Virus record (IMG/VR): IMGVR_UViG_2778261511_000013
Direction: 5' to 3' (one strand)
DNA: 34,208 bases
Origin: a virus
Lineage: Duplodnaviria > Heunggongvirae > Uroviricota > Caudoviricetes
The notes beneath the pieces were generated by a model. It did no database searches, was not told the DNA's origin, and was given only the letters and a program-made list of their open reading frames with translations. Below are positions 8,423 to 20,121 of this stretch, in pieces; within the stretch, counting starts at the first letter, position 1; each line of letters starts with the position of its first letter. The position numbers were made by a program, and so were the translations under genes.

Positions 8423-9009
8423 TAGCCGCCCCCCAGTAATGACGCCACGTTACCCGTGATGCTTTTCAGCAGTGAAGTATCTGGAGGCTTGGTGGTTTTG
8501 TTGCCGCTGTTCTGTACCGCCGACGTGCTAGCCCCTTCCTTCATGTTGGTTTTATCCGCGACGGTAATCTGCTGCGTCCGGGAGATAAGGACCTCCCTCA
8601 GGGTGAGGACGGCGGACAGGACGTTTTCGGTTGTCTTGTCCGTCGTCACTTCCAGCGCCCGGATCAACATGTTGCTGTACAGTCGTTTACCGGTTACCAC
8701 ATCGAAGGGGATACGGCTTTCCTGCAGATCCAGTAGCTCCTGATACGTCTGCTGAGGACTCAGGCCGAGCAGGCTGGTAGCCGTCAGATTACTGGCAAAA
8801 TCCAGCAATGCGCCGCCACCGGCGAAACCAACCTCCATCACCACTTCTGACGGTTTTTTATAGGCATGATCAGCGACAGCGGCCCCAACCTCTACCGGAT
8901 GCTCTGTTATTTCAAGCATATCTGTATGCTTCTCTGAAATAACAACACTGGGAACAATCATTCCTATTTTTCTGCTCTGCTGATGAAAAAGTGTAGAGAG
9001 AATATCCAC
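8422..9009 (-). CDS. tail protein (195 aa)
   Basis: Overlaps neighbouring genes by a few nt; directly downstream of the tape measure. Confidence 0.4.
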   Translation of the reverse strand: MDILSTLFHQQSRKIGMIVPSVVISEKHTDMLEITEHPVEVGAAVADHAYKKPSEVVMEVGFAGGGALLDFASNLTATSLLGLSPQQTYQELLDLQESRIPFDVVTGKRLYSNMLIRALEVTTDKTTENVLSAVLTLREVLISRTQQITVADKTNMKEGASTSAVQNSGNKTTKPPDTSLLKSITGNVASLLGGG

Positions 9010-10997
9010 TAACCCACCCTCACCTGATTACTTCGCATGACCTGAGCATTTGCAGACTGTTGCCGACGTGCAACCTCATTACCGACAGCGTGCGGATCTC
9101 CACCACCGTAAATGTGGTAGGTATTTTGCTGGTTAACCTCTGTCATTTTGCCACTAATTCCCGCCACGGCAGCCTTATTAATCAGCTCTCGAGAATAGAT
9201 ATTTCTTCCATTTTCATGCTGGATAATGCTGCTCATCAATGCTGACATGGTTTGCGGATCGCTCATATTCAGGGCAGCCCGGGGATCCACTCCCAGTCGT
9301 TGCGATACAGCCCTGATATACGCAGTTGTGTTGTTATTATCAGACGCAGGTGCCCAGGTAGAGATAATTTTCTCCACACTGTTTATTCCCCGTCCGGCGT
9401 ACAGCATTAACTGACGAGCAAGAGCCCGTAATCCATCAAAAGCAGTTTCAAATCTGGCAAATCGCCCGCCCGGGCGTTCAAGAGAAGCCCCTGCCTGACC
9501 AGCAAAATTAAGGTTTCCCGGATTGTTATTCCGTTCTCCTCGTTTCGTAGCCTGTGCATATTGTTCCGGCTCATCATCACCAAACCAGCCGCGTACCGTC
9601 CGGCCCACACTGCGGGGATCGAATCCCCAGTGCTCTTTAATCCAGTCGGCAGTACTGTTAGCGCTGTCTGTAACCATCGGCATCGCTGACGGATTTTCGC
9701 TGCCCTGATTAAGTATCTGTTTGCCGATGATGACGGCATCAGCCCAGCGGCCATCTTTGATAGCGTTGAGCAGGTCGGCGATCATGTTCAGCATTTTGCT
9801 GAATTCGCCCATCTGGTCGATGAAGTTGCTGAAATCCCACTTCAGGGACCATGATTTTGGGTCAATATTGAGCAGTTTCGCCAGCGCTTTCGCCAGTTCA
9901 TTAACAGACCCTTTCAGGTCACGAACCATCTTCAGCGCGGCATCGACCTCCGGCTTCCACTTGCCCCAGTCAATCAGGCTGTCGCCGCCTTCCTTCCAGG
10001 TCTGATAGTCCTCCCACAGAAGGGCAATCCCCGCCGCCAGCGCGGTAATGAGACCAATCGGCGACATCCAGAACGTACTGTTCAGAATGCGCAGCGCAAT
10101 CGTCAGCGCGCCAAACAGCGAGATGAGCTCCCGCGTTTGCTTATCCAGCGATTGCCACCAGGTGATAAGGCTGGATGTTCCCTCAATTAGCCTGAAGAAC
10201 AGCCGCCCGATGATGTCTCCGATCGCCAGAATGCCTTTTATGGCTTTCGTCAGGGTCTGCTCGATACGAGGGAAGTTGTCCAGGATATGGCGGCGCAGGG
10301 TGTCCAGCGAACCCGCAAGCCCACCCGCAAGATTAGAGCCGATTTTGTCACGGGCCATGCCTGCCATCGCGCCGAACTCGCGCAGGGAGGTCATGAATTT
10401 GTTGGAGCTTCTGGCCGCCTCGTCAGCATTGAAGCCGATAGCTTTCGCCATTGCGCTGTACTGCCCGGAGAACCCCCCCACACCCCGGCGCATCGCCATA
10501 AGGGTATTTTCGTCAATGCCCAGCATCTGCGCATACTGGTTAGCCCGGTAATACGGCATGCTGCTGAGCTTCTGGCCGACGCCCGTAAAGATAGCGGCCA
10601 TGTCGCGCATGTTACCGCTGGCGTCACGGGTCTGTACCCCCAGACGATTCAGAAATCCCTCCGCCCCGGGGTTATTACGGATAAAACGGGCAAGGCTCTC
10701 CAGTGACCCGCGCGCAGCGTCCACGCTGCCGCCAACCTGCGAAACCGCATAGCCAATAGACTGAATTCCCTGGACTGTCGCGCCGGTGCGCTGTGACGCC
10801 CAGTAAAGATTATCCAGGCCGGAGGCGATCTTAGCCGTGAAGGCCACCACGGACAGCGCAGCTCCTTCAACGGCCAGTCCCATTTTGATGACATTTGCAG
10901 TTGTACCGGCGAGGACAGAACCGAACTTTTTCGCTCCTGCATCATCCACACTGAAGCCAAGCGAGACGAGGAAATCTTTAATAGTTTCAGCGTTCAT
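9009..10997 (-). CDS. tail tape measure protein
   Basis: About 660 aa, Ala/Gly-rich with predicted helical and hydrophobic segments; start MNAETIKD at 10997 overlaps the stop of the frameshifted chaperone extension. Confidence 0.75.
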   Translation of the reverse strand: MNAETIKDFLVSLGFSVDDAGAKKFGSVLAGTTANVIKMGLAVEGAALSVVAFTAKIASGLDNLYWASQRTGATVQGIQSIGYAVSQVGGSVDAARGSLESLARFIRNNPGAEGFLNRLGVQTRDASGNMRDMAAIFTGVGQKLSSMPYYRANQYAQMLGIDENTLMAMRRGVGGFSGQYSAMAKAIGFNADEAARSSNKFMTSLREFGAMAGMARDKIGSNLAGGLAGSLDTLRRHILDNFPRIEQTLTKAIKGILAIGDIIGRLFFRLIEGTSSLITWWQSLDKQTRELISLFGALTIALRILNSTFWMSPIGLITALAAGIALLWEDYQTWKEGGDSLIDWGKWKPEVDAALKMVRDLKGSVNELAKALAKLLNIDPKSWSLKWDFSNFIDQMGEFSKMLNMIADLLNAIKDGRWADAVIIGKQILNQGSENPSAMPMVTDSANSTADWIKEHWGFDPRSVGRTVRGWFGDDEPEQYAQATKRGERNNNPGNLNFAGQAGASLERPGGRFARFETAFDGLRALARQLMLYAGRGINSVEKIISTWAPASDNNNTTAYIRAVSQRLGVDPRAALNMSDPQTMSALMSSIIQHENGRNIYSRELINKAAVAGISGKMTEVNQQNTYHIYGGGDPHAVGNEVARRQQSANAQVMRSNQVRVG

Positions 10998-11232
10998 TAT
11001 CCTCTCTCCATTTCTCAATGCGCCGCTGGTTATCCGCTTTTACCGCCAGATGGTCATTCAAGAGAGCAATGTCATACAAATCGACAGAGCCATCTTTAAG
11101 TGCTGTATAGGGAATTAACCCGGCGTCAACCGGATTGAGAAGGTAGGACAGCCCGTCCGGCAGGCTGTTAAACGTCAGCCCTGTTGCAGGCTCTGCGTCG
11201 TGCTGGTAAGGGGTGTAGGCAAAAAATTTCCC
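10987..11232 (-). CDS. -1 frameshift extension of the tail assembly chaperone (lambda G-T analogue)
   Basis: Tandem slippery heptamers G_GGA_AAT and T_TTT_TTG (minus strand 11232-11220) in the zero frame, 17 codons before the chaperone stop; the -1 frame stays open for about 79 codons and ends with TGA overlapping the tape-measure ATG. Confidence 0.55.
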   Translation of the reverse strand, partial: GKFFAYTPYQHDAEPATGLTFNSLPDGLSYLLNPVDAGLIPYTALKDGSVDLYDIALLNDHLAVKADNQRRIEKWREDNER

Positions 11233-11627
11233 AGCGAATCGGCGACCACCCGCGCCACCAGATGAAGCATGACCAGCAAGTCAATATCATCAAACATCAG
11301 TTCGCCCTGGGTAAATACCGGAACCCATCCGTCCATATGACGCCGCGACACCACCGCAAGACAGGGATGAATAATCGCATCGGTGTCATCTTCGGTCAGG
11401 GAAGACAGTTCCTCAGCGATACGCGGGAGCATGGTTTCAAACACCGGTTTTAACTGCTCGAATTTCACGGTGTCGATTTTGCCGTCAGCAGGCAAACGGG
11501 AGCGAATGCTCCCGAAATCTGACATCATTCCCGCCAGTACCGGCAGAAGTTTGCGGGTCACTTTCAGCTGGTCAAAAACGCTGAGTTTTGCCACGCGATA
11601 TTTCACGCCTTTGATTTCGAATTCCAT
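11175..11627 (-). CDS. tail assembly chaperone (zero-frame product)
   Basis: 150 aa between the tube and tape-measure genes; carries the slippery site near its 3' end. Confidence 0.6.
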   Translation of the reverse strand: MEFEIKGVKYRVAKLSVFDQLKVTRKLLPVLAGMMSDFGSIRSRLPADGKIDTVKFEQLKPVFETMLPRIAEELSSLTEDDTDAIIHPCLAVVSRRHMDGWVPVFTQGELMFDDIDLLVMLHLVARVVADSLGNFLPTPLTSTTQSLQQG

Positions 11628-11630
11628 GCA

Positions 11631-12071
11631 TTAAAACTCCCCGAGAACCTGGTCAATCTTGCCGCAGTCAAACACCCACGGCATCGTATTACCGGTTTTA
11701 GCGTTGGCGTTATCCGGTTGTTTCTGGAACGCAACACTGCGTGCCGTGATGATGTCGCCGCTGACCTTGTTGCGGATCACGATAACGTTATTCCCCCATG
11801 TGGCAGAAGACTGGCTCTGTGCGTTATACGCCAGCGACAATTTTTTATTTGTCGATGATGTCTTCAGAAGGTTAACGGTAATCGTCCCGCTTTTATCTGC
11901 ATGGAGACTGTGCATCACTTCGCCATCAGCACCGATGGTCATGGTGTTTTTAGGACCGCCCATCGCAACCACAATCCCCTCTTCAGAACTTGCAGAACCG
12001 TACCCGAGGTCAATCGAACCGGTCGGGCCGGTCAGCGTCGCAGTGACATCCATAAAAGAATAGGTAGACAT
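11631..12071 (-). CDS. tail tube protein
   Basis: 146 aa directly downstream of the sheath-sized gene. Confidence 0.5.
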   Translation of the reverse strand: MSTYSFMDVTATLTGPTGSIDLGYGSASSEEGIVVAMGGPKNTMTIGADGEVMHSLHADKSGTITVNLLKTSSTNKKLSLAYNAQSQSSATWGNNVIVIRNKVSGDIITARSVAFQKQPDNANAKTGNTMPWVFDCGKIDQVLGEF

Positions 12072-12081
12072 TCACTTCCCC

Positions 12082-13227
12082 TTAGCGAACAACGTTAATC
12101 TGTACGTCAGCGTAATGAACCGCGCCTGCAAGTTTTATTGCAGCCTGAATCACCGGAGCCTTACGGGCTTCACGTTCTGATTGTGCCTGTTCATCCAGCG
12201 GCTGGGCGTATACGTAATAACCTTTGGGCAGCGTGTCACCTGATGACAACTGACCAAGGTCGCCACCGTTCCATACGCCCGGAGCAATCAGTCCATTCTG
12301 AACGGCCTGATCCAGTGATTTTTCAACATTTGATAACAGTCGGGTAATACCGGCTTCAGTCTGGGGAACCTTCGTGGTGCTGGTATAAAGCAGGTTATAG
12401 AGGTTGGTCTGCACATAATTCTGTAACCAGTCCAGGCCGTGGCGTTCATCAAAGAAATCGCCGTTAGCCATCACTCCCTGCTGGAGGATAGCTGTATCAT
12501 TCTGGTAGTACACGAACACATTGCAGTTTTTTGCATCAAGTGCCGATGCCTGGCTGACTGTCAGTGTTTCATACCCGACACCCGGCTCCTGCTTAAACTT
12601 GAGCGTAATCGCGGTATTACTGCCATTGAAATTAACCGTGAATGCCCGGCCAAATGCAGATAACGCAGCGTATTTACTACCCGATGAATATTGAATAAAA
12701 CTGCGTGAATATCCGGCGGTTTTCAGTTTTGATGCCAAATCATCGCTGGATGCAGTCTGCAGGCATTTCTCATCGCTTGTCGTAATCGCCAGAATACGGC
12801 TTACAGAAGAGGATTCGATCGCCGCAGCCACTTTCAGCCAGTCTGCATCCGGAATATCTTCATCGTCTGCAATCCCCAGCCCATACCATGAAGTATAATC
12901 GAGCATGGCATTCACAGCCTGCTCCAGCGTCTCAGGCGTGGCCTGTTCGCTGTCTCCCTTCGTTTTCACCCAACGACCAACAAAAACCTCCTGAGGTTTC
13001 GGTGATTGAGAGAAAAACACCTGCGCAGCCTTATATTCTGGTGATTCCACGCCAAAATCTTTTCCAATATCTTCCGCGGCAGAATAACGGCGAATGCGCT
13101 CACTTACCGGAATGATTGTGGACGGGCCGAGAATGAGTAATGCACCAAAATTTCGCCCTGATGCTGCACGCGGCGACATGATCACATCAACATTAACAAC
13201 GTTTGATACAGGCAAGCCCTGTGCCAT
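12082..13227 (-). CDS. tail sheath protein (putative)
   Basis: 381 aa preceding the tube gene in a tail with J/W/V baseplate genes, which implies a contractile tail. Confidence 0.45.
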
Positions 13228-18029: not shown

Positions 18030-18803
18030 TCAGGCGGGATAAGAATGGGAGGAGGGAAAAACGATTTCTTTATAACAGCGACAATTCGGGAGCTCGCCAG
18101 CGTGACCGGTCATGCCATCAAGCGTTGGAGGTTTGCCCCATTCGACAAATTTACCTTCCATTTCCCGATGAGAATGCCTGACGTCACCATCTTCGGCTGT
18201 ACGCCAGATATAACCATTCGAACCAATTGACAGCGCACGTGCCTGATCCAGCGCGCCGGTTGCACGTCCAAGTTCAGTACGGGCAATCAGGTCAGCTCTG
18301 GACTTTGCTATATCACCCGATGCTGCAATTTCTTTAGCAAAATGTTCTGCTCTCCCACCGGTCACAACAGCTTCTATCGCCCGATTCTGGATGTCGTACA
18401 CCCTGTCAGCCGCCTCGAGGGGGAGCGATTTGATGTACTTGACCTGTTCGGCGATGATGGATTGCATCACCTGCCCTGGCGGGGCACTGTTTACCAGATT
18501 GCGTAGCTCACGGCTGATGGTTTTGCTGTGTTTACGCCACTGCTCATCATTCTTGCGCACAATATCGGCGGTAAAGTTTTCCGCGACCTTTGTCGCCCAG
18601 GGGGTGATGATTTCACTGTAGCGTTCCAGCGCCTCAATAATTTCCGTGATACTGTCATTTGAACCATCGTAGTGACCATTTACGATGTCCCCGACCGCCC
18701 GCGCTATCCTGCGTAGGCTGGTTCGATACCGGATTTCCGCCTGACGGTTCCTGCGGTTCGTCATCAGGTTCGCCGATGCCGGGCGGCGCTTCATCTTCGG
18801 CAT
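18030..18803 (-). CDS. head morphogenesis protein (Mu F / SPP1 gp7-like)
   Basis: 257 aa directly downstream of the portal; the ORF overlaps the portal 3' end by about 150 nt, so the true start is uncertain. Confidence 0.5.
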   Translation of the reverse strand: MPKMKRRPASANLMTNRRNRQAEIRYRTSLRRIARAVGDIVNGHYDGSNDSITEIIEALERYSEIITPWATKVAENFTADIVRKNDEQWRKHSKTISRELRNLVNSAPPGQVMQSIIAEQVKYIKSLPLEAADRVYDIQNRAIEAVVTGGRAEHFAKEIAASGDIAKSRADLIARTELGRATGALDQARALSIGSNGYIWRTAEDGDVRHSHREMEGKFVEWGKPPTLDGMTGHAGELPNCRCYKEIVFPSSHSYPA

Positions 18804-20121
18804 TCTCGATGTCCTCGTCGGTAATGGATGCCCCGATGCCGGTTACGTCAGAATTTTCTCGCAAATCAGTCATAGCGGCTTTCAGTGTCATCAGACCATC
18901 ACCCAGCGCTGTACTGATTGCGTTGGTAGTGTTTAACGCCACCGTTGAGCGATCGACATCAGACATTTGCCAGAGCGGGTTAAACTCAAACGTGAAATCG
19001 TCCGGTAGCGGCTTGCCAAGTTCCGAACGATGCATGATGTCCAGTATCCGCCGCACCGGAAGACGTAAACGTCTCTCCTGCAGCGAGCTTACCCGATCGT
19101 AATAGTTGGCAAGGTCTGCATCGCCGGTAGAAAATCCTTTCGGGGACTGTCCGAACAACCGCACCAGTGGGATACCAACAGCGCCACTAATCTGTTCTGC
19201 AAACTGCGAAAGGATGTCATCCAGACCACTGAAGCTGTACTGATGGGTTTCAAACTTATCCCGCGAGTCCATGAGCGTCATGCCTTCATTGCTCTGGAAC
19301 TGTCGAATCAGGTCGATATTCTTCAGCAACGCTTCATACGCAGGACCACCAAGTGCGATAAGCTCGCGTAGCTTCTCCACGCTGTAGGTGCGCAGATGCG
19401 CCTTGTAGACCAGCTGCGCCGCGCCGACAGTAGCGCTGTCGAACGCGGTAAGACGATCCCAGATACGCTCTACAACCGACATTCCCCATTCGTTCTCGGT
19501 CATCTTCTGCTGGAATGGCAGCGTGACGCCATCAAAGCGAATCAGACGACTGTGATGAATGCGCCAGGCAGGAATTCCCGTTGCTGTGGTCACCACATCG
19601 TAAAACTCAGGTTTACCCAGGTCCGGCCCCATATCTTTAATGCGGCGGGTCAGCACTGGGTTAATCATCCAGCGGTCGAGCGGGAGAATGCCCTTAAACT
19701 TGCCTTCTCCAATGGTTTCGAGCCGCAGCGGGGTCATTGGTGCCTGCCCCTCAATCATGATGAAACCCACCGCGCCGCCATAGAGGCGCGACCATTTCAG
19801 CACGTCATTCAGCGCATCCCAGATTTGCAACTCATCCAGTTGTGATTCGAGAATGCCGCGATCTTTTGCATCAATTTCCGAAGTGATGCGAATGCCTTTG
19901 CGGGTCATATCATCTGGGATAGCATCGACCGCTTCGCCGATGATCCAGGACGAACGATAGGACCATTCCACCAGCATGCGGTTACGACTGGTGAAATTAG
20001 CCCGGTAGGTGGATGCTGAGTGCTGGTTAGGTGTCTGCATCCCTACGCGGGCAATAAAATTCTCATAACCATCAGCTGTGGCCTGCGCAGTTCGCCGCAG
20101 GGCTTGTTTGTTTCGTGCCAT
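18655..20121 (-). CDS. portal protein
   Basis: 488 aa immediately after the terminase large subunit (ATGA overlap at 20121); acidic C-terminus. Confidence 0.7.
   Translation of the reverse strand: MARNKQALRRTAQATADGYENFIARVGMQTPNQHSASTYRANFTSRNRMLVEWSYRSSWIIGEAVDAIPDDMTRKGIRITSEIDAKDRGILESQLDELQIWDALNDVLKWSRLYGGAVGFIMIEGQAPMTPLRLETIGEGKFKGILPLDRWMINPVLTRRIKDMGPDLGKPEFYDVVTTATGIPAWRIHHSRLIRFDGVTLPFQQKMTENEWGMSVVERIWDRLTAFDSATVGAAQLVYKAHLRTYSVEKLRELIALGGPAYEALLKNIDLIRQFQSNEGMTLMDSRDKFETHQYSFSGLDDILSQFAEQISGAVGIPLVRLFGQSPKGFSTGDADLANYYDRVSSLQERRLRLPVRRILDIMHRSELGKPLPDDFTFEFNPLWQMSDVDRSTVALNTTNAISTALGDGLMTLKAAMTDLRENSDVTGIGASITDEDIENAEDEAPPGIGEPDDEPQEPSGGNPVSNQPTQDSAGGRGHRKWSLRWFK

What the first reader, a model, noticed from the sequence alone, without database searches (positions are those of the whole stretch)
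10987..11232. Programmed -1 frameshift in the tail assembly chaperone using tandem slippery heptamers
GGGAAATTTTTTG on the minus strand (11232-11220) places G_GGA_AAT and T_TTT_TTG in the zero frame 17 codons before the chaperone stop. The -1 frame is then open for about 79 codons with no Met and terminates on a TGA that overlaps the tape-measure ATG, the geometry of lambda G/G-T. The doubled slippery motif is unusual.
Basis: seen in the sequence. Interest (0 to 1): 0.5.

Follow-up and report, generated by a model that had tools for sequence, protein, structure and literature searches.

The report
Tail chaperone -1 frameshift site
This prophage makes a second, longer tail-assembly chaperone by letting ribosomes slip back one base on a conserved 13-base slippery run, which is the well-known lambda G/GT trick in a phage group where public annotation mostly misses it.

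Summary
On the minus strand, a 150-aa tail assembly chaperone (11627-11175, Pfam Phage_TAC_15) lies between the tail tube gene and the tape-measure gene. Its zero frame reads CTG GGA AAT TTT TTG (11234-11220). That gives three overlapping in-frame slippery heptamers, not two: G_GGA_AAT, A_AAT_TTT and T_TTT_TTG. The -1 frame then runs 79 codons to a TGA at 10989-10987 and encodes Pfam DUF6889. In 71 unique homologues, the four motif codons almost never change, while other conserved columns vary freely at synonymous sites. The -1 frame stays open in 70 of 72 genome loci and shows coding periodicity. About half the loci have no possible start codon in that frame. No conserved downstream RNA structure was found. 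Distant relatives (Burkholderia, Ralstonia, Acinetobacter, Providencia) keep the same layout, usually with an NNT_TTT core. GenBank already annotates the joined product in Klebsiella phage Mulock and Burkholderia phage Magia. RefSeq instead calls a separate "DUF6889 family protein" starting on CTG. Verdict: an ordinary new member of a known kind, with a mildly interesting composite slippery tract.

The parts
11175..11627 (-). Zero-frame tail assembly chaperone (G-like, TAC-N), 150 aa plus a TGA stop at 11177-11175.
   Evidence: ORF and translation. Pfam Phage_TAC_15, E=7e-31. phrog_1688 'tail assembly chaperone', E=6e-65. The AF2 model is folded up to about residue 135 and disordered over 136-150.
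11220..11232 (-). Composite slippery tract G_GGA_AAT_TTT_TTG. It contains three overlapping in-phase heptamers: G_GGA_AAT (11232-11226), A_AAT_TTT (11229-11223) and T_TTT_TTG (11226-11220).
   Evidence: Sequence and phase. Codon use in 71 unique homologues: GGA 67/71, AAT 68/68, TTT 70/70, TTG 65/66. Other conserved columns have normalised synonymous entropy of 0.5-1.0. The tract is identical in all 84 close loci and in most of 72 genome loci.
10987..11226 (-). The -1 frame extension (T-like part of the fusion): 79 sense codons plus TGA at 10989-10987. The predicted fusion is 213 aa.
   Evidence: Translation. The extension is 78-84 codons and ends ...KWREDNER* in 70 of 72 loci. Codon-position entropy is 0.74/0.61/1.41. 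A natural in-frame T7 allele, P0032, is exactly 213 aa.
10996..11112 (-). DUF6889 domain inside the -1 extension.
   Evidence: Pfam PF21829, E=1.3e-20, residues 41-79 of the 81-aa -1 translation. phrog_4364, E=2e-23.
11178..11219 (-). Dual-coded stretch after the slip site. It encodes the zero-frame C-terminal tail (PTPLTSTTQSLQQG) and the -1-frame linker (AYTPYQHDAEPATG).
   Evidence: The variation pattern follows the -1 frame (0.84/0.71/1.19), so the zero-frame tail is not constrained as protein. The zero-frame tail has pLDDT of about 35.
11281..11283 (-). TGA in the -1 frame. This is the upstream limit of the interval in which a -1 shift can be productive.
11245..11252 (-). G-rich, weakly Shine-Dalgarno-like stretch CGGGTGGT (codons R126, V127 and the first two bases of V128), 12-19 nt upstream of the tract. 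It is a possible upstream stimulator, not an established one.
   Evidence: Mean anti-SD duplex energy is about -5 kcal/mol against a gene background of -0.5 +/- 1.3. Codon use is unusual: CGG 47/64 and GTG 64/71. Observed energy is -6.5 against -4.2 under synonymous resampling, with a per-sequence tail of about 0.12.
9009..10997 (-). Tape measure protein gene. Its ATG is at 10997-10995, with GGAGAGAGG at 11009-11001 as ribosome binding site. It overlaps the -1 ORF by 11 nt.
   Evidence: ORF in the same frame as 9009..11018. phrog_2276 'tail length tape measure protein', E=1.6e-282. Sequence.
11631..12071 (-). Tail tube gene immediately upstream (context).
   Evidence: Pfam KPP10_Orf10 / Phage_Tube_PhiTE, E=5e-60.
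12082..13227 (-). Tail sheath gene (context). It shows this is a contractile-tail (myovirus) module.
   Evidence: Pfam DUF3383, E=5e-101. The homologue is annotated 'tail sheath' in phage SEN34.

Best explanation
This is a programmed -1 ribosomal frameshift of the lambda G/GT (P2 E/E+E') type, in the tail assembly chaperone gene of a Brunovirus/SEN34-like temperate myovirus prophage.

Most ribosomes translate the 150-aa chaperone and stop at 11177-11175. A minority slip back one base on the tract G_GGA_AAU_UUU_UUG (codons 133-136). They continue for 77-79 codons in the -1 frame and make a 213-aa fusion whose C-terminal part is the DUF6889 domain.

By analogy with lambda (inferred, not shown here), the shared N-terminal part coats the tape measure protein. 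The rare C-terminal domain would recruit the tube protein and so set the chaperone:fusion ratio needed for tail assembly.

The tract offers three successive P/A-site registers. Slips in the first two give ...SLGN-FFAYTP.... A slip in the third gives ...SLGNFL-AYTP....

I infer that the middle register, A_AAU_UUU, is the main one. It puts tRNA-Phe in the A site, where it re-pairs cognately from UUU to UUU. It is the core kept in distant relatives, and it is the most stimulable of the three in E. coli reporter data. No downstream RNA structure is required. A weak upstream SD-like element may help.

Shown here: the anatomy, the conservation, the coding status of the -1 frame, and the absence of an independent start. 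Inferred: which register is used, the efficiency, and the assembly role.
For: Position and family:
- The gene lies between tube and tape measure and matches Phage_TAC_15 at 7e-31. The -1 ORF matches DUF6889 at 1e-20 and PHROG families.

Nucleotide-level selection on the tract:
- GGA 67/71, AAT 68/68, TTT 70/70, TTG 65/66.
- Elsewhere in the same alignment, Phe columns are TTC:TTT 39:32, GGA is the rarest Gly codon (6/64 and 7/60), and CTG dominates Leu.
- The tract and 30 nt upstream are 100% identical in four phages that are 78-98% identical overall.

The -1 frame is coding:
- It is 78-84 codons in 70 of 72 loci.
- Third-position entropy is twice that of positions 1 and 2, with invariant residues P, G, D, L, D, N and W.

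No independent start:
- 37 of 72 loci have no ATG, GTG or TTG before the domain, and the starts that do exist are scattered.
- Database gene calls begin at six different residues.

The shift interval is pinned:
- The -1 frame opens only 2-3 codons before GGA in 7 loci (L102, L104, L105, L108, L109, L114, L145). In L148 and L153 a stop lies inside GG(TAA)T or GG(TGA)T, so the slip there must be on the T run.

Deep conservation:
- tblastn hits in 40 phage records all end at residue 134/135.
- Eight relatives at 26-58% identity keep the -1 DUF6889-like ORF, with C_CCT_TTT, G_GGT_TTT, T_TTT_TTT, or G_GGA_AAT with or without A_AAT_TTT.
- Two of them are already annotated as joined frameshift products.

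Precedent from the literature:
- P2 E/E+E' shifts -1 at TTTTTTG without a hairpin (PMC3091744).
- Lambda G/GT has a 30:1 ratio (PMC5009743).
- Related KPP10-type tails have a conserved GTTTTT shift motif (PMC12846349).
- In E. coli with the IS3 pseudoknot, A_AAU_UUU reaches 11.4%, against 1.05% for G_GGA_AAU and 0.77% for U_UUU_UUG (PMC4066793 Table S3).
Against: There is no experimental evidence for the fusion protein in this phage group.

Each of the three heptamers alone is near background in E. coli without a stimulator: 0.07-0.12% against a background of 0.055%. No conserved downstream structure was found. How a useful level of fusion is reached is therefore not explained.

The upstream SD-like signal is weak and confounded by the conserved amino acids R-V-V.

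The amino acids G-N-F-L are themselves conserved, so part of the nucleotide conservation is protein-level. The argument rests on the synonymous positions.

Two loci (L115, L135) have a disrupted -1 ORF.

Fold search of the predicted chaperone found no solved tail assembly chaperone, so family membership rests on sequence profiles only.
Confidence: 0.9

Rival explanations
1. DUF6889 is a separate small gene, translated on its own from a non-canonical start. RefSeq/PGAP annotates it this way: a 54-aa CDS starting at CTG 11151.
For: RefSeq annotates 'DUF6889 family protein' as its own CDS. Many database entries of 46-78 aa exist. About half of the homologous loci contain some ATG, GTG or TTG in the -1 frame near the domain.
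Against: In the window there is no ATG, GTG or TTG in the -1 frame before the domain, and no SD precedes the CTG. 37 of 72 loci lack any start, and the starts that exist are not positionally conserved. -1-frame conservation (FFARTPxQRD...LPDG) begins exactly at the slippery tract, about 25 codons upstream of the annotated start. This model does not explain the frozen synonymous sites of GGA AAT TTT TTG.
Confidence: 0.03
2. The longer product arises mainly by transcriptional slippage. RNA polymerase would add one U on the T6 run, making a U7 mRNA that encodes the same ...GNFFAYTP... fusion.
For: The T run is the most widely kept element: it is present in all but L101 and Bordetella IFTN9. The T7 DNA allele gives exactly the predicted fusion. 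A non-ribosomal mechanism has been proposed for T4-like TAC genes, according to a paper cited in PMC12846349; I did not read that paper.
Against: Six T is shorter than the runs of about 8-9 or more that support efficient slippage by bacterial RNA polymerase (established knowledge, not tested here). The model does not explain near-absolute conservation of the G of the preceding Leu codon (66/71 end in G), of GGA (67/71) and of AAT (68/68). Those bases matter only for tRNA re-pairing. L101 and Bordetella IFTN9 lack the T run but keep G_GGA_AAT and the -1 ORF. Burkholderia relatives have only C_CCT_TTT, with a T4 run.
Confidence: 0.05
3. The tract and the open -1 frame are a chance or relic feature, and only the 150-aa chaperone is functional.
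For: Single in-phase heptamers do occur by chance, at about 0.3% of codons in this window. Isolated heptamers of these three types shift at near-background levels in reporters.
Against: The expected number of heptamers in the 35-codon interval is about 0.1, yet three tandem ones are present. The tract and the -1 ORF are conserved across Enterobacterales and beyond, with coding periodicity.
Confidence: 0.01

Closest known systems
Bacteriophage lambda G / G-T tail assembly chaperone frameshift (Levin 1993; Xu, Hendrix & Duda 2004, 2013, 2014; as summarised in PMC5009743)
   Same: The gene lies between the major tail (tube) gene and the tape measure gene. [quoted passage not shown] The extension has no start of its own and ends a few bases inside the tape-measure gene. 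The first heptamer, G_GGA_AAN, is the lambda heptamer apart from its last base. No stimulatory structure is evident.
   Different: This is a contractile-tail phage. The protein family differs (Phage_TAC_15 / DUF6889, with no detectable sequence match to gpG or gpT). The last base is U rather than G, which in E. coli reporters lowers shifting about 4-fold unstimulated and about 40-fold with a pseudoknot. Two further heptamers follow directly.
Bacteriophage P2 E / E+E' frameshift (Christie et al. 2002, as described in PMC3091744)
   Same: It is a myovirus. The shift is -1 at T_TTT_TTG between the tube and tape-measure genes. There is no downstream hairpin. The products are small (91 and 142 aa in P2; 150 and 213 aa here).
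   Different: No Pfam match to a P2 gpE-type family was found; only Phage_TAC_15 was hit. Here T_TTT_TTG is the last of three registers and is probably not the main one.
Annotated 'tape measure chaperone frameshift product' of Klebsiella phage Mulock (MN098327.1) and Burkholderia phage Magia (MT701587.1)
   Same: These are true homologues, at 58% and 26% identity in the chaperone part. Mulock has the identical GGGAAATTTTTTG tract, and both have the same -1 DUF6889-like extension.
   Different: These are annotations only. The Mulock genome paper does not mention the frameshift. Magia uses C_CCT_TTT. Neither has experimental support that I could find.
Conserved -1 frameshift with GTTTTT motif in TAC genes of Pakpunavirus/Vandenendeviridae and Andersonviridae (PMC12846349)
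   Same: The tail module is related (KPP10-type tube protein). A T-run slippery core sits at the 3' end of TAC-N. The downstream ORF is routinely mis-annotated as a separate hypothetical gene.
   Different: These are different phage families with a simpler motif. I did not test homology of their chaperones to this one.

Membership tests
G/GT-type programmed -1 frameshift in phage tail assembly chaperone genes (Xu et al. 2004) | The gene lies between the major tail/tube gene and the tape measure gene. | tested here: met
   Tube at 12071-11631, chaperone at 11627-11175, tape measure from 10997.
G/GT-type programmed -1 frameshift in phage tail assembly chaperone genes (Xu et al. 2004) | There is a second ORF in the -1 frame that overlaps the 3' end of the first, has no initiation signal of its own, and ends at or in the tape-measure start. 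| tested here: met
   The -1 frame is open over 11280-10990, has no ATG, GTG or TTG before the domain, and overlaps the tape-measure gene by 11 nt.
G/GT-type programmed -1 frameshift in phage tail assembly chaperone genes (Xu et al. 2004) | There is an X_XXY_YYZ slippery heptamer in the zero-frame phase inside the overlap. | tested here: met
   Three are present, at 11232-11220.
G/GT-type programmed -1 frameshift in phage tail assembly chaperone genes (Xu et al. 2004) | The slippery site and the -1 ORF are conserved in diverged homologues. | tested here: met
G/GT-type programmed -1 frameshift in phage tail assembly chaperone genes (Xu et al. 2004) | Both the short and the fused protein are made at a fixed ratio, and both are needed for tail assembly. 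| not testable with these tools
   This needs western blot or MS and genetics.
Pfam Phage_TAC_15 (PF21822), tail assembly chaperone clan | The profile match is above the curated threshold. | tested here: met
   107.8 bits against a cut-off of 22, residues 6-138.
Pfam Phage_TAC_15 (PF21822), tail assembly chaperone clan | The fold resembles a solved tail assembly chaperone. | tested here: inconclusive
   The AF2 model has mean pLDDT 69.9. Foldseek against PDB found no hit with E<1. phmmer against PDB found nothing.
P2 gpE / E+E' family | Sequence homology to gpE. | tested here: not met
   The Pfam scan at E<=0.01 returned only Phage_TAC_15. It works like P2 E/E+E' but is not a member by sequence.
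dnaX / IS911-type stimulated -1 frameshift | A conserved downstream hairpin or pseudoknot lies 5-9 nt after the heptamer. | tested here: not met
   RNAalifold consensus energy is -0.25 kcal/mol with 2 pairs and no covariation across 40 sequences. The single-sequence z-score is -0.67.
dnaX / IS911-type stimulated -1 frameshift | A Shine-Dalgarno-like element lies 6-17 nt upstream. | tested here: inconclusive
   There is a weak G-rich element. Duplex energy is -6.5 against -4.2 kcal/mol under synonymous resampling, with a per-sequence tail of about 0.12.
Programmed transcriptional slippage | A long homopolymer (about 8-9 nt or more) is the only conserved element. | tested here: not met
   The run is T6. 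The flanking G_GGA_AA is also frozen at synonymous sites. Relatives with T4 or no T run keep the -1 ORF.

The most novel reading that the evidence does not exclude
The 13-nt tract G_GGA_AAU_UUU_UUG may be a selected multi-register slippery run rather than one heptamer with accidental neighbours.

Four consecutive tRNAs (Gly, Asn, Phe, Leu) can all re-pair in the -1 frame. Ribosomes would therefore get three successive chances to slip, and the E-site tRNA could also re-pair in the second and third registers. That could explain how a useful fusion:chaperone ratio is reached with three individually weak heptamers and no downstream RNA structure.

If so, it would be a natural, stimulator-independent way of setting frameshift efficiency by adding registers.
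Probability: 0.3. Interest if true: 0.45.

Novelty: new member of a known kind. Interest (0 to 1): 0.3.

Why it matters
The practical value is mainly in annotation.
- Pfam DUF6889 and phrog_4364 ("unknown function"; earlier database names include "NTP pyrophosphohydrolase") are the C-terminal, frameshift-encoded domain of Phage_TAC_15 tail assembly chaperones.
- The 54-aa CTG-initiated CDS that RefSeq places in 315 of 5426 complete E. coli genomes, and in many other Enterobacterales, is almost certainly not a separate gene.
- SEN34, YP3 and the vB_EcoM phages leave the region as an unannotated 177-nt gap.

For recoding biology, the tract is a clean natural test case. It has three overlapping heptamers, each measured as weak in E. 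coli. It is frozen across a whole order of bacteria, and no structure follows it. The two possible products differ by one residue (F or L at position 136), so mass spectrometry can read out which register is used.

Tried and rejected
- **Downstream stimulatory structure.** RNAalifold on 40 diverged sequences (slip site to +130) gave essentially no consensus structure. The window sequence alone folds no better than shuffles, with z = -0.67. A local 8-bp hairpin about 50-70 nt downstream exists in the window, but it is too far away, it is not recovered in the 40-sequence consensus, and it lies in conserved -1 codons (NSLPDGLS).
- **Upstream SD-like stimulator.** It is suggestive only and is kept as a hypothesis.
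- **Fold evidence for the chaperone.** The AF2 model is of moderate quality. Foldseek against PDB and phmmer against PDB found nothing usable.
- **Joint alignment for predicting the fusion structure.** A joint alignment of the natural fusion P0032 with chaperones and DUF6889 proteins (A4) was visibly misaligned, so it was not used. The fusion and the T domain were therefore not modelled.
- **Literature.** Searches for SEN34 plus frameshift and for tandem or overlapping slippery sites in phages found nothing specific. The Mulock genome paper does not mention its annotated frameshift.
- **T-run length polymorphism (phase-variation idea).** All 84 close phage loci have T6, so this was rejected. 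Only one T7 contig and one apparent T5 protein were seen.
- **NCBIfam.** It has no model for any of the three proteins.
- **Limits on reach.** Distant relatives came from tblastn against phage records instead.
Full report
**What is there**

On the minus strand the window carries a contractile-tail module:
- sheath, 13227-12082 (Pfam DUF3383);
- tube, 12071-11631 (KPP10_Orf10);
- a 150-aa ORF, 11627-11175, that matches Pfam Phage_TAC_15 (7e-31) and phrog_1688 "tail assembly chaperone";
- the tape measure gene, with ATG at 10997 and end at 9009 (phrog_2276, 1.6e-282).

The closest phage records are Escherichia phages vB_EcoM-606R2 and relatives (98%), Yersinia phage YP3 (84%) and Salmonella phage SEN34, genus Brunovirus (78%). 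The same region is present in 315 of 5426 complete E. coli genomes.

**Check of the observation**

The zero frame reads CTG GGA AAT TTT TTG at 11234-11220. A third in-phase heptamer, A_AAT_TTT, lies between them.

The -1 frame is closed by a TGA at 11283-11281. It is open from 11280 and runs 79 sense codons from TTT at 11226 to a TGA at 10989-10987.

That TGA is 8 nt downstream of the first base of the tape-measure ATG, so the ORFs overlap by 11 nt (ATGAACGCTGA). It is not an ATGA overlap. From memory, lambda T and H overlap in a similar way.

In-phase heptamers occur at about 0.3% of codons in 27 genes of this window, and they are tandem nowhere else. The 13-mer is unique in the window.

**The -1 frame encodes a real, conserved protein part**

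- Its translation matches Pfam DUF6889 (1.3e-20) and phrog_4364.
- I analysed 72 sequences: the window plus 71 of the 80 genome loci that span Enterobacterales, down to about 46% chaperone identity. In 70 of these 72 the -1 extension is 78-84 codons and ends ...KWREDNER* at the tape-measure start.
- The two exceptions are L115, which has a premature stop, and L135, which is fused to something else.
- Codon-position entropy in the -1 frame is 0.74/0.61/1.41 downstream of the zero-frame stop. Several residues are invariant while their third positions vary.
- In the dual-coded 14-17 codons after the slip site the pattern still follows the -1 frame (0.84/0.71/1.19). The zero-frame tail is therefore not constrained as protein. 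It is also predicted to be disordered, with pLDDT of about 35.

**The tract is under selection at the nucleotide level**

In 71 unique sequences the four codons are GGA 67/71, AAT 68/68, TTT 70/70 and TTG 65/66. The preceding Leu codon ends in G in 66/71.

Elsewhere in the same alignment:
- the two other conserved Phe columns are TTC:TTT 39:32 in one and TTT:TTC 39:32 in the other;
- GGA is the rarest Gly codon (6/64 and 7/60);
- CTG dominates Leu;
- normalised synonymous entropy is typically 0.5-1.0.

All 84 close phage loci have the identical tract with T6.

**There is no independent start**

The window has no ATG, GTG or TTG in the -1 frame before the domain. The same holds for 37 of 72 loci, and the starts that do exist are not conserved in position.

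Database gene calls for this region begin at six different residues. RefSeq starts a 54-aa "DUF6889 family protein" on a CTG at 11151 with no ribosome binding site. SEN34, YP3 and vB_EcoM-606R2 leave a 177-nt gap.

**Where the slip happens**

In 7 loci the -1 frame opens only 2-3 codons before GGA. In L148 (CTC GGT AAT TTT TTT) and L153 (GGT GAT TTT TTG) a -1-frame stop lies inside the first heptamer position, so the slip there must be on the T run. L101 (GGA AAT ATT TTG) keeps only G_GGA_AAT.

tblastn against 50,697 phage records gave 40 hits, and every one ends at residue 134/135, which is the slip site.

Eight relatives at 26-58% identity keep the -1 DUF6889-like ORF:

| Phage | Slippery element |
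|---|---|
| Klebsiella Mulock | identical 13-mer |
| Acinetobacter A785.1 | G_GGA_AAT + A_AAT_TTT |
| Burkholderia Magia and BgManors32 | C_CCT_TTT |
| Ralstonia | G_GGT_TTT + T_TTT_TTC |
| Providencia | T_TTT_TTT |
| Edwardsiella ZHS | only GAT TTT |
| Bordetella IFTN9 | only G_GGA_AAT |

The commonest shared core is NNT_TTT, with the Phe codon UUU in the A site preceded by U. In the window that is the middle heptamer.

This agrees with systematic E. coli measurements (Sharma et al. 2014, PMC4066793 Table S3):

| Heptamer | No stimulator | IS911 stimulators | IS3 pseudoknot |
|---|---|---|---|
| A_AAU_UUU | 0.070% | 0.355% | 11.4% |
| G_GGA_AAU | 0.069% | 0.112% | 1.05% |
| U_UUU_UUG | 0.118% | 0.247% | 0.77% |
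| no motif (background) | 0.055% | – | – |

It also agrees with their rule that cognate A-site re-pairing is what matters most in bacteria. Their genome search did not include any of these three patterns, so it would have missed this family.

**Stimulators**

No conserved downstream structure exists. This is the same situation as in P2 E/E+E' at TTTTTTG (PMC3091744).

A G-rich stretch, CGGGTGGT, lies 12-19 nt upstream. It pairs weakly with the anti-SD, more than expected under synonymous resampling (-6.5 against -4.2 kcal/mol). It also uses unusual codons (CGG 47/64, GTG 64/71). However, the per-sequence significance is poor and the sequences are related. I treat it as a hypothesis.

**Mechanism**

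The best-supported reading is a programmed -1 ribosomal frameshift that produces a 213-aa fusion.
- Registers 1 and 2 give ...SLGNFFAYTP....
- Register 3 gives ...SLGNFLAYTP....

A natural T7 allele (P0032, contig L165) encodes exactly the first product in frame.

The assembly role is inferred from lambda (PMC5009743): the N-terminal part on the tape measure, and the rare C-terminal domain recruiting the tube protein.

The rivals fit the data poorly:
- An independent small gene is contradicted by the lack of a conserved start and by conservation that begins at the tract.
- Transcriptional slippage on T6 would give the same protein, but it does not explain the frozen G_GGA_AA part or the relatives with T4 or no T run.
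- Chance is excluded by the conservation.

**Comparison with what is known, and novelty**

This works like lambda G/GT and P2 E/E+E' and meets every testable defining feature of that class. By sequence it belongs to Phage_TAC_15, not to the gpG or gpE families.

The joined product is already annotated in GenBank for the homologues Mulock and Magia. The Mulock paper does not discuss it.

It is therefore a new member of a known kind. The useful by-products are two:
- DUF6889 is identified as the frameshift-encoded domain of this chaperone family.
- The Enterobacterales branch has fixed a three-register slippery tract whose individual heptamers are weak.

Interest is modest, at 0.3.

Noticed in passing
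L165:1895-1911 (Logan SRR23924998 contig); corresponds to window 11232-11220: One public contig has GGGAAATTTTTTTG (T7 instead of T6). This puts Phage_TAC_15 and DUF6889 in one 213-aa ORF (P0032), exactly the predicted frameshift product. It could be a homopolymer sequencing error or a real fusion-only allele.
   Followed up: partly
protein P0094 (no DNA fetched); corresponds to window ~11220-11232: A 159-aa homologue reads ...SLGNFCPNSLPARRR..., as expected from a T5 run (one T lost). That would put DUF6889 out of reach of a -1 shift. It may be an error or a decaying prophage.
   Followed up: no
window 10987-11151 (minus strand); L164:2000-2164: RefSeq/PGAP annotates a separate 54-aa 'DUF6889 family protein' starting on CTG with no ribosome binding site. 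Older database names for the same peptide are 'NTP pyrophosphohydrolase', for which I saw no basis.
   Followed up: yes
window 11245-11252 (minus strand): Codons R126 and V127 show reduced synonymous variation and use the rare CGG codon (47/64), forming CGGGTGGT 12-19 nt upstream of the slippery tract. It may be an SD-like frameshift stimulator, but the statistics are weak.
   Followed up: partly
window 11202-11219 (minus strand) and homologues: The bases just after the tract are fairly conserved (consensus GCNCGNACTCCC, -1 frame A-R-T-P). The window itself has GCC TAC ACC CCT (A-Y-T-P). I attributed this to the -1 protein and did not test whether it has an RNA-level role.
   Followed up: no
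window 9009-10997 (minus strand): The C-terminal third of the tape measure protein matches PHROG families labelled endolysin or tail injection transglycosylase, and RefSeq names the homologue 'lytic transglycosylase'. It is thus a tape measure with a peptidoglycan-cleaving domain.
   Followed up: no
L135:1552-2331 and L115:1570-1692: Two homologous prophages have a broken -1 ORF. In L135 (Izhakiella australiensis) it runs on for 258 codons into unrelated sequence after ...DGSVDLAD. In L115 (Enterobacter sp. R1(2018)) it stops after 39 codons. Both are probably degraded prophages.
   Followed up: no
window 18030-18803 and 18655-20121 (minus strand): Two long ORFs (257 aa and 488 aa) overlap by about 150 nt in the head-gene region. 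This may be only an upstream start-codon artefact of the ORF list.
   Followed up: no
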